From NCBI RefSeq assembly GCF_000026545.1, contig NC_011601.1: a stretch of DNA of 64,000 nucleotides, one strand, 5' to 3'. Origin of the DNA: Escherichia coli O127:H6 str. E2348/69. GTDB lineage: Bacteria > Pseudomonadota > Gammaproteobacteria > Enterobacterales > Enterobacteriaceae. A model generated the notes under the pieces. It did not search any database and had not been told where the DNA came from. It was given only the letters and a program-made list of their open reading frames with translations. Below are positions 44,864-45,276 of this stretch, piece after piece. Every line of letters begins with the position of its first letter. Position 1 is the first letter of the stretch. The translations under genes and the position numbers were made by a program.

Positions 44864-45276
44864 GAGTTAATTCCACTGTGAAAACGAACATTTATTTTGC
44901 GTTCCCGTTTGTTTTATTTTTGTTAACATTTAATATAATTATTATTAACCTCATGGACGCGTTAATGGCTAACTCATAATGGGTATTCAATAAGCTGCAT
45001 TCTGTGATTGTTATCACATTTTTGTTTCGGGTGAATAGAGGGCATTTTTTCGTTAATTTTGATTATTAATCAGTTTGTTATGTTCTGTTGTGAGTAAAAA
45101 AATAGCATCTGACTTTCAATATTGGTGATCCATAAAACAATATTGAAAATTTCTTTTTTCTACGCCATGTTTTCAATATTGGTGATTAAAGTTTTATTTC
45201 CAAATTAAAGGGCGTGATATCTGTAATTAACACCACCGATATGAACGACGTTTCCTTCATGATTTCTGGAGATGCA
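44864..45276. promoter_or_regulatory. divergent cai / fix promoter-regulatory region
   Basis: 413-bp AT-rich intergenic region between divergent caiT and fixA; contains two perfect 16-bp direct repeats tttcaatattggtgat (45124..45139, 45181..45196) and a third caatattg palindrome between them. Confidence 0.5.

What the first reader, a model, noticed from the sequence alone, without database searches (positions are those of the whole stretch)
45124..45196. Two perfect 16-bp direct repeats and three CAATATTG palindromes in the cai/fix divergent control region
tttcaatattggtgat occurs twice (45124..45139 and 45181..45196), with a third caatattg palindrome in between (within aacaatattgaaaat). Repeats of this regularity in a divergent promoter region are likely activator sites (CaiF and/or CRP are the known regulators here). 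By my coordinate bookkeeping this intergenic region is also somewhat shorter than in K-12, so site spacing may differ.
Basis: partly seen in the sequence, partly recalled or inferred. Interest (0 to 1): 0.3.

Follow-up and report, generated by a model that had tools for sequence, protein, structure and literature searches.

The report
CaiF operator with one repeat deleted
The repeats are the known binding sites of the carnitine activator CaiF between the cai and fix operons, but this strain (EPEC E2348/69) has lost one 59-bp repeat unit, and so one of the two published CaiF sites, through a rare deletion between the repeats.

Summary
The repeats are real, but they lie 10 bases left of the stated coordinates. 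TTTCAATATTGGTGAT sits at 45114-45129 and 45171-45186, and CAATATTG at 45117, 45138 and 45174. Window 45114-45148 is an exact match to the published CaiF operator, TTTCAATATTG-N13-CAATATTGAAA.

The window is E. coli O127:H6 E2348/69. K-12, almost all of the 5426 complete E. coli genomes, and Escherichia, Citrobacter and Salmonella species carry five half-sites: two full sites (F1, F2) plus an orphan half-site C inside the fix core promoter. The window lacks 59 bp bounded by the 16-bp direct repeat TTTTCAATATTGGTGA. This deletion removes F2 and the -35-like GTGACA, and puts F1 about 68 bp upstream of the inferred fix start.

- This deletion junction occurs in only 5 of 5426 genomes, on two unrelated backgrounds.
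- Sister deletions of 57 bp (11 genomes) and 116 bp (2 genomes) also exist.

The array is therefore a minor hotspot for repeat-mediated deletion. The regulatory effect is inferred, not shown. This is a known system with a previously unremarked natural allele, of low to moderate interest.

The parts
45114..45148 (.). Complete CaiF operator, with the sequence of K-12 site 'F1': TTTCAATATTG-N13-CAATATTGAAA. The left half is 45114-45124 and the right half 45138-45148.
   Evidence: Perfect 11-nt inverted repeat with a 13-nt spacer (I4). Identical to the published consensus. Aligns to the promoter-distal full site of K-12.
45124..45139 (.). CRP-like motif GGTGA-TCCATA-AAACA inside the CaiF-site spacer, centred on 45131.5. 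It corresponds to the K-12 site I recall as 'CRP site 3'.
   Evidence: Read directly from the sequence. Its centre lies at -127 of the inferred K-12 fix start and at -68 in the window. The CRP site numbering and positions come from my memory of the Buchet 1998 abstract and were not retrieved.
45170..45185 (+). The surviving copy of the 16-bp direct repeat TTTTCAATATTGGTGA that bounds the 59-bp deletion. The junction can be placed anywhere within it.
   Evidence: K-12 has two copies 59 bp apart (L001 670 and 729) and the window has one. ETEC1720 has the identical gap.
45171..45181 (+). Orphan CaiF half-site 'C' (TTTCAATATTG), with no partner 13 bp downstream. It lies at -28 to -18 of the inferred fix start, inside the core-promoter spacer.
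   Evidence: Mean identity to the majority base across 20 other species is 0.94, against 0.52-0.61 for the linkers.
45164..45169 (+). The -35 slot of the fix promoter. It now reads GCCATG, where K-12 has GTGACA.
   Evidence: The promoter scan finds GTGACA-17-TAAAGT on the + strand in K-12 and no + strand promoter-like site in the window.
45187..45192 (+). Candidate -10 of the fix promoter, TAAAGT. The inferred fix transcription start is near 45199.
   Evidence: The start is inferred from the hexamer and is consistent with the recalled 289-bp distance between the two starts in K-12 (288 by sequence arithmetic).
45003..45018 (.). Perfect CRP site, TGTGATTGTTATCACA. If it is centred at -41.5, the cai start falls near 44969, matching a -10 CATTAT on the - strand at 44981-44976.
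   Evidence: The -41.5 position comes from my memory of the Buchet 1998 abstract.
43349..44863 (-). caiT, the first gene of caiTABCDE.
   Evidence: RefSeq annotation of NZ_LT827011.1, whose coordinates equal window coordinates.
45277..46047 (+). fixA, the first gene of fixABCX.
37211..37606 (+). caiF, the activator that binds these sites. It is intact.
   Evidence: 131 aa, 128/131 identical to K-12 CaiF. The residues that the alanine scan in PMC12083890 linked to DNA binding (Y11, V42, N43, T46, Y47, R75) are unchanged.

Best explanation
The repeats are the operator half-sites of CaiF, the carnitine-pathway activator, in the shared control region of the divergent caiTABCDE and fixABCX operons. 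The normal layout has five half-sites: two complete sites (F1 and F2, each TTTCAATATTG-N13-CAATATTGAAA with a CRP-like GGTGA-N6-nAACA in the spacer) and an orphan left half-site C inside the fix core promoter. The left halves form three direct repeats of TTTCAATATTGGTGA, 57 and 59 bp apart. In this strain (EPEC E2348/69), slippage or short-homology recombination between the second and third direct repeats deleted one 59-bp unit. Four consequences can be read from the sequence. Only one full CaiF site remains, with the F1 sequence. That site now sits where F2 normally sits, but 2 bp closer, centred at -68 instead of -70 of the inferred fix start and 57 instead of 59 bp from half-site C. The -35-like GTGACA is replaced by GCCATG. 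The two transcription starts are 59 bp closer together. What follows is inferred. CaiF and CRP should still bind the remaining site and drive carnitine- and cAMP-dependent induction, because several other genera work with a single full site plus C. Output, especially of fix, is probably altered and more likely reduced, because of the lost site, the lost -35 and the 2-bp phase shift.
For: - **Motif identity.** Window 45114-45148 is an exact match to the published CaiF consensus. It lies between the annotated caiT and fixA genes, and caiF is intact.
- **Deletion.** The pairwise alignment with K-12 shows one 59-column gap bounded by TTTTCAATATTGGTGA.
- **The deletion is derived, not ancestral.**
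  - E. albertii, E. whittamii, Citrobacter, Salmonella arizonae/diarizonae, Phytobacter and others all have the five half-sites at the same distance from the fixA ATG.
  - The closest non-E2348/69 genomes (99.4-99.5% identical over 8 kb) all span 59-70 bases more than the query.
- **Rarity and recurrence.**
  - A junction-specific 38-mer hits 5 of 5426 complete genomes. Three are E2348/69 assemblies and two are pig ETEC with a K-12-like flank haplotype, 13 differences from E2348/69.
  - The sister junction between repeats 1 and 2 (57 bp) is in 11 genomes on at least 3 haplotypes.
  - The junction between repeats 1 and 3 (116 bp) is in 2 genomes.
- **Promoter.** GTGACA-17-TAAAGT is found in K-12 and lost in the window.
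- **Position arithmetic.**
- **Single-site layouts occur naturally.** Atlantibacter, Pluralibacter, Trabulsiella and Enterobacteriaceae RIT691 have one full site plus C.
Against: - No binding or expression data for this allele were available, so every functional consequence is inference.
- The transcription starts and CRP site positions are recalled from the abstract of Buchet et al. 1998. The paper is not in the library. They were checked only for internal consistency with the sequence.
- GTGACA is conserved only in the Escherichia/Citrobacter/Salmonella clade, so it may not be an essential -35, or it may be something else such as a CRP half-site.
- The distance from the full site to C is 58-61 bp in every species examined. 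The window's 57 bp falls just outside that range, so 'still functional' is not guaranteed.
- The junction searches need a 28-base exact word, so the allele counts are lower bounds.
Confidence: 0.85

Rival explanations
1. The short form is the original state, and K-12-type strains gained a 59-bp tandem duplication. On this view the window shows the ancestral, simpler operator.
For: Units A and B (57 and 59 bp) look like diverged tandem copies of one another, so a duplication did happen at some point. Some genera have only one full site.
Against: The five-half-site layout is present in every Escherichia species retrieved and in Citrobacter, Salmonella, Phytobacter, Pseudocitrobacter and Intestinirhabdus. 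The junction is absent from 5421 of 5426 E. coli genomes. The nearest relatives of E2348/69 are full length. The same gap sits on two unrelated haplotypes. The duplication is therefore ancient and the window's state is a recent loss.
Confidence: 0.02
2. The missing 59 bp is an assembly or cloning artefact, in which a repeat was collapsed in the deposited E2348/69 sequence.
For: Short tandem repeats can be collapsed by assemblers. The junction was not found in metagenome contigs.
Against: Three separate E2348/69 assemblies carry it: NZ_CP059840.2, NZ_LT827011.1 and NZ_LT903847.1. So do two ETEC genomes from another laboratory. A 59-bp unit is far below read length. It could still be a mutation fixed in the laboratory stock of E2348/69 rather than in the 1969 patient isolate. 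These tools cannot decide that.
Confidence: 0.03
3. The repeats act mainly as CRP (or FNR/ArcA/H-NS) sites or as AT-rich promoter architecture, and the CaiF match is incidental.
For: GGTGA-N6-AAACA in the spacer resembles a weak CRP site. The region is AT-rich, and PMC3680233 lists FNR and ArcA sites in the cai promoter.
Against: The conserved blocks are the 11-nt CaiF halves (0.91-0.95 identity to the majority base over 20 species), not the spacers (0.67-0.73). The motif is absent upstream of the fixA homologues of Shewanella. Published gel-shift and footprint work assigns exactly this inverted repeat to CaiF. CRP co-binding in the spacer is compatible with the main explanation and is not an alternative to it.
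Confidence: 0.05
4. The deletion is functionally neutral. One CaiF site plus half-site C is sufficient, and E2348/69 regulates cai and fix like K-12.
For: Natural single-site layouts exist in Atlantibacter, Pluralibacter, Trabulsiella and RIT691. All cai, fix and caiF reading frames are intact in E2348/69. Deletion alleles persist in an established lineage, O121:H19.
Against: The persistent lineage carries the other deletion, which keeps F2, the 59-bp spacing and GTGACA. The window's allele loses the -35-like hexamer, changes the otherwise invariant 58-61 bp spacing to 57, and is seen only in single strains. As I recall it, Buchet 1998 found that mutating CRP site 2, which lies in F2, lowered fix expression threefold.
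Confidence: 0.3

Closest known systems
CaiF operator sites F1 and F2 of the E. coli K-12 cai-fix intergenic region (Buchet et al. 1999, Mol Microbiol 34:562, as summarised in PMC12083890 and PMC3680233)
   Same: Same locus and same activator gene. Window 45114-45148 is letter-for-letter the F-site consensus TTTCAATATTG-N13-CAATATTGAAA. It is identical to the promoter-distal K-12 site, spacer included.
   Different: Only one complete site is present instead of two. The second site's spacer and right half, together with 24 bp of linker including GTGACA, are deleted. The remaining site is centred at -68 rather than at -127 and -70 of the inferred fix start.
CRP-dependent divergent cai/fix promoters (Buchet et al. 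1998, J Bacteriol 180:2599; positions recalled from the abstract, paper not retrievable here)
   Same: The perfect CRP site upstream of cai is present (45003-45018), with only a change in the central spacer base (GG to GT). The weak CRP-like motif inside F1 is intact.
   Different: The CRP-like motif inside F2 (GGTGA-GGAACT-TAACA), which I recall as CRP site 2 at -69.5 of fix, is gone. The two starts are about 230 bp apart instead of about 289 bp.
Deletion between short direct repeats by replication slippage or RecA-independent recombination (general bacterial mutational mechanism; established knowledge)
   Same: The end points lie in a 16-bp perfect direct repeat. Exactly one repeat period is lost and one copy retained. 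The same event recurs on unrelated backgrounds, and all three pairwise combinations of the three repeats are found in nature.
   Different: Nothing unusual. The only particularity is that the repeats are transcription-factor half-sites, so each event removes a whole regulatory module.
Single-site cai-fix control regions of Atlantibacter, Pluralibacter and Trabulsiella, and the three-site region of Proteus
   Same: They have one full CaiF-type site followed by the orphan half-site TTCAATATTGGTGA and the conserved GTTTTATTT, with no GTGACA. This resembles the window's layout.
   Different: In those genera the distance from the full site to C is 59-61 bp, against 57 bp in the window. Proteus mirabilis has seven half-sites at an exact 59-bp period.

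Membership tests
CaiF operator (F-site) | Perfect 11-bp inverted repeat TTTCAATATTG / CAATATTGAAA with a 13-bp spacer | tested here: met
   45114-45124 and 45138-45148 are 100% complementary with 13 nt between them (I4). The consensus is quoted in PMC12083890.
CaiF operator (F-site) | Located in the caiT-fixA divergent intergenic region | tested here: met
   It lies between caiT (43349-44863, -) and fixA (45277-46047, +).
CaiF operator (F-site) | Two complete sites (F1 and F2) per control region, as described for K-12 | tested here: not met
   There is only one complete site. The second is reduced to a lone left half by the 59-bp deletion. This is a defect of the allele, not of the identification.
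CaiF operator (F-site) | The cognate activator gene caiF is present and intact | tested here: met
   caiF is at 37211-37606, encodes 131 aa, and is 98% identical to K-12.
CaiF operator (F-site) | Bound by CaiF protein (gel shift, DNase I footprint) | not testable with these tools
   This needs purified CaiF. For the identical K-12 sequence it is reported in the literature cited.
CRP site | TGTGA-N6-TCACA or a close match at an activating distance from a start site | tested here: inconclusive
   A perfect site lies at 45003-45018, outside the finding. Inside the finding there is only GGTGA-N6-AAACA, matching 7 of 10 consensus bases, centred at about -67.5 of the inferred fix start. No binding data are available.
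Repeat-mediated (slippage-type) deletion allele | The end points lie in direct repeats, one copy is retained, and the deleted length equals the repeat period | tested here: met
   The 16-bp repeat has a 59-bp period and the gap is 59 bp.
Repeat-mediated (slippage-type) deletion allele | Derived state: outgroups and nearest relatives carry the long form | tested here: met
Repeat-mediated (slippage-type) deletion allele | Independent recurrence | tested here: met
   The same junction occurs on the E2348/69 haplotype and on a K-12-like haplotype. The sister deletions lie on at least 3 haplotypes.

The most novel reading that the evidence does not exclude
The published two-site model (F1, F2) may be incomplete. 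The orphan half-site C (TTCAATATTGGTGA, -28 to -18 of the inferred fix start) is as conserved as F2 from Escherichia to Proteus and Providencia. It keeps a near-fixed 59-bp distance from the neighbouring full site, and Proteus extends the array to seven half-sites at an exact 59-bp period. This suggests that CaiF works as a phased, higher-order array reaching into the core promoter, possibly with a CaiF subunit replacing -35 recognition. On that view the natural deletion alleles are ready-made dissection mutants: deltaA in O121:H19, deltaB in E2348/69 and deltaAB in 2014C-3655 and C6. The prototype EPEC strain would then be a regulatory variant for carnitine respiration.
Probability: 0.35. Interest if true: 0.4.

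Novelty: already known. Interest (0 to 1): 0.25.

Why it matters
The motif itself adds nothing new. It is the textbook CaiF operator.

Three points are of practical interest.

1. E2348/69 is the reference EPEC strain used worldwide, and its cai/fix control region is not the K-12 one. It lacks one of the two CaiF sites and the -35-like hexamer of fix. Carnitine-pathway expression data and CaiF-based biosensor promoters cannot be assumed to transfer between the two strains.

2. The three direct repeats formed by activator half-sites make the operator a small deletion hotspot. At least six independent events were found in 5426 genomes, one of them fixed in the O121:H19 STEC lineage. This gives a natural allelic series for testing how many CaiF sites, and what spacing, are needed.

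3. The strongly conserved orphan half-site inside the fix core promoter may explain the recalled observation that a segment overlapping the fix start is needed for cai transcription. The two-site description does not explain this.

Tried and rejected
- **Primary papers.** Buchet 1998, Buchet 1999 and Eichler 1996 could not be retrieved by PMID or PMC id. A full-text search for the numeric site positions returned only unrelated clinical abstracts. Start sites and CRP site numbers therefore rest on memory plus a consistency check against the sequence.
- **E2348/69 literature.** A search for E2348/69 together with carnitine and fixA found nothing.
- **Metagenomes.** A metagenome scan for the exact deletion junction returned 0 contigs.
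- **Other rearrangements in E. coli.** A tandem-duplication junction (repeat 3 context joined to repeat 2 context) gave no match. A deletion mediated by the right-half repeats (AACAATATTGAAA) also gave no match.
- **Partial hits.** Six 80%-coverage hits to the 57-bp deletion junction proved to be full-length alleles with a T-to-C change next to F2, as in SCU-316.
- **Rejected readings.** I considered chance AT-rich repeats, an ancestral short form and an assembly collapse, which three assemblies plus the ETEC genomes argue against.
- **Promoter scan.** Its only hit on the minus strand in the window (TTAACG-16-AATAAT, 44965-44938) does not fit a CRP site at -41.5. I did not adopt it as the cai promoter.

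Full report
**1. The observation.** Reading 44700-45700 and searching for the pattern places TTTCAATATTGGTGAT at 45114-45129 and 45171-45186. The stated 45124-45139 and 45181-45196 are 10 bases too far right. These are the only two copies in 64 kb, even when two mismatches are allowed. Shuffles predict 0.04 copies, and none of 100 shuffles gave two. CAATATTG occurs 7 times in the window against 1.52 expected, and three copies (45117, 45138, 45174) lie within 65 bp here. The repeat finder adds the key structural point: 45114-45124 and 45138-45148 form a perfect 11-nt inverted repeat with a 13-nt spacer (I4).

**2. What the repeats are.** The window matches E. coli O127:H6 strain E2348/69 at 100% identity, and the coordinates of NZ_LT827011.1 equal the window coordinates. 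The repeats lie between caiT (43349-44863, minus strand) and fixA (45277-46047, plus strand). The cai and fix genes and caiF are all annotated as intact. Two papers held in the library summarise the primary work of Buchet et al. 1999. [quoted passage not shown] Window 45114-45148 is an exact instance of that sequence. CaiF in the window is full length and 128/131 identical to K-12 (Y5C, E96D, R106C). The residues that the alanine scan in PMC12083890 linked to DNA binding are unchanged.

**3. What differs from K-12.** Aligned with a K-12 derivative (L001), the region is collinear except for point differences, one extra A, and a single 59-column gap. K-12 has five half-sites:
- F1 is TTTCAATATTG-GTGATCCATAAAA-CAATATTGAAA.
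- F2 lies 57 bp further on and is TTTCAATATTG-GTGAGGAACTTAA-CAATATTGAAA.
- An orphan left half-site, which I call C, lies a further 59 bp on, in TTTTCAATATTGGTGATTAAAG.

The gap is bounded by the 16-bp direct repeat TTTTCAATATTGGTGA, formed by F2-left and C, and the window keeps one copy (45170-45185). The window's 'two direct repeats and three palindromes' are thus what remains of the normal three and five. The intergenic distance is 413 bp against 471 bp.

**4. Direction and frequency of the change.** Five lines of evidence bear on this.
- A 38-mer spanning the junction was designed so that neither flank plus the repeat reaches the 28-base megablast word. It hits 5 of 5426 complete E. coli genomes: three E2348/69 assemblies and two pig ETEC strains, ETEC1720 and ETEC1722.
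- ETEC1720 has the identical gap on a K-12-like flank haplotype, 13 differences from E2348/69 in 440 flanking bases. That makes it an independent event.
- The nearest non-E2348/69 genomes (99.4-99.5% identical over 8 kb) all span 59-70 more bases.
- One representative genome from each of 63 species with a fixA relative was fetched. The five-half-site layout sits at a constant distance from the fixA ATG in E. albertii, E. whittamii, other Escherichia, Citrobacter, Salmonella arizonae and diarizonae, Pseudocitrobacter, Phytobacter and Intestinirhabdus.
- The exact junction was not found in metagenome contigs.

The short form is therefore a recent, derived deletion, and among complete genomes it is private to E2348/69 and one ETEC clone.

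**5. A small deletion hotspot.** Junction probes for the other repeat pairs were also positive.
- *57-bp deletion (repeats 1 and 2, removing F1).* It is present in 11 genomes: the O121:H19 STEC lineage, CEA106S, 100181 and ZF8-1. These lie on at least three flank haplotypes.
- *116-bp deletion (repeats 1 and 3, leaving only C).* It is present in 2014C-3655 and C6. The flanks of 2014C-3655 are identical to the O121 haplotype, so it may be a second-step deletion.
- *No match.* A tandem-duplication junction and a junction mediated by the right halves were both absent.

End points in short direct repeats, loss of exactly one period, and recurrence on independent backgrounds are the signature of slippage-type deletion. 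This assignment rests on established knowledge of the mechanism, not on an experiment here.

**6. Position relative to the promoters (partly inferred).** I recall the following from the abstract of Buchet et al. 1998 (J Bacteriol 180:2599), which could not be retrieved.
- The two starts are 289 bp apart.
- A perfect CRP site is centred at -41.5 of cai.
- Weaker CRP sites lie at -69.5 and -126.5 of fix.
- A 50-bp segment overlapping the fix start is needed for cai transcription.

The sequence is consistent with this. The perfect CRP site TGTGATTG(G/T)TATCACA (window 45003-45018) would put the cai start near 44969, seven bases past a CATTAT on the minus strand. The only plus-strand promoter-like site in K-12 is GTGACA-17-TAAAGT, which puts the fix start 288 bp from the cai start. 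The centres of F1 and F2 then fall at -127 and -70. That coincides with the recalled CRP positions and with GGTGA-N6-(A/T)AACA motifs in the two spacers.

On this frame, the window's single full site is centred at -68 and C occupies -28 to -18. The -35 slot reads GCCATG instead of GTGACA, and the starts are 230 bp apart. The promoter scan no longer finds a plus-strand promoter-like site in the window.

**7. Comparative evidence on what matters.** Over 20 species other than E. coli, mean identity to the majority base is as follows:

| Element | Mean identity to majority base |
|---|---|
| F2-left | 0.95 |
| F2-right | 0.91 |
| C | 0.94 |
| F1 halves | 0.75-0.79 |
| Linkers | 0.52-0.61 |

- TTCAATATTGGTGA of C and the following GTTTTATTT are almost invariant from Escherichia to Providencia.
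- The distance from the promoter-proximal full site to C is 59 bp in most species, with a range of 58-61. Proteus mirabilis has seven half-sites at an exact 59-bp period.
- Atlantibacter, Pluralibacter, Trabulsiella and an unnamed Enterobacteriaceae isolate have one full site plus C and no GTGACA.
- The fixA homologues of Shewanella have no such motifs.

Two inferences follow. A single full site plus C is a workable architecture, so the E2348/69 allele is probably still inducible. However, its 57-bp spacing lies just outside the natural range, and it has lost a hexamer that is invariant in its own clade, so its output is probably changed. Neither inference is tested.

**8. Rivals.**
- *Ancestral short form.* Excluded by the outgroups and the nearest relatives.
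- *Assembly collapse.* Unlikely, given three E2348/69 assemblies and two ETEC genomes. A mutation fixed in laboratory stock cannot be excluded.
- *CRP-only or generic AT-rich sites.* This does not fit the conservation pattern, in which the halves are conserved more strongly than the spacers.
- *Neutrality of the deletion.* This remains a live possibility, at about 0.3.

**9. Verdict.** The finding is a correct recognition of a known operator, with wrong coordinates. The added value is that the reference EPEC strain carries a rare, derived, repeat-mediated deletion that removes one of the two published CaiF sites and the -35-like element of fix. It belongs to a small natural allelic series in E. 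coli. The kind of system is already known. The allele and the conserved orphan half-site are modestly interesting to specialists and easy to test.

Noticed in passing
L042 1219-1406 (Proteus mirabilis), L043 (P. hauseri): The Proteus cai-fix control region carries seven CaiF-type half-sites, three full sites plus the orphan, at an exact 59-bp period. That is one more unit than in Escherichia.
   Followed up: partly
window 45171-45200, and all loci L009-L045 at about 1395-1425: The orphan half-site TTCAATATTGGTGA and the following GTTTTATTT are almost invariant from Escherichia to Providencia. The -10-like hexamer between them is not conserved. The two-site description of the operator does not account for this element.
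   Followed up: partly
L005, L006 (O121 RM8352, 2014C-3655); hits H36-H46: The O121:H19 STEC lineage is fixed for the 57-bp deletion that removes CaiF site F1. 2014C-3655 has identical flanks but lacks both full sites, which suggests a second-step loss.
   Followed up: partly
L007 (SCU-316), L074, L075: One E. coli haplotype has a T-to-C change just upstream of F2-left. This lengthens the homology with F1-left from 15 to 16 bases. Two of the 57-bp deletion strains (100181, ZF8-1) have exactly this flank haplotype.
   Followed up: partly
window 45003-45018: The perfect CRP site upstream of cai reads TGTGATTGTTATCACA here and TGTGATTGGTATCACA in K-12. The change is in the central spacer only and both half-sites are intact. 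SCU-316 has TGTGATTTGTGTCACA.
   Followed up: no
window 37211-37606: CaiF differs from K-12 at three residues (Y5C, E96D, R106C), two of which introduce cysteines. None is among the residues linked to DNA binding in PMC12083890.
   Followed up: partly
window 4257-4267 (- strand) and 37309-37319: There is one further perfect TTTCAATATTG at 4257-4267, and a one-mismatch copy inside the caiF coding sequence. Neither has a partner at 13 bp. They are probably chance: 8 hits with up to 1 mismatch against 1.7 expected, three of them in the operator.
   Followed up: no
summary: Three of the 5407 matches to the caiT-fixA intergenic query lie on records labelled as plasmids rather than chromosomes.
   Followed up: no
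H58, H60 (Z1323HEC0475, Z1323HEC0016) versus window 41000-49000: These close relatives span 70 rather than 59 extra bases over the 8-kb cai-fix query. There is therefore a further indel of about 11 bp somewhere in the locus.
   Followed up: no
L048-L065 (Shewanella spp.): Shewanella species encode FixA relatives at 59-63% identity, but there are no CAATATTG-type sites upstream. Regulation there must differ.
   Followed up: no
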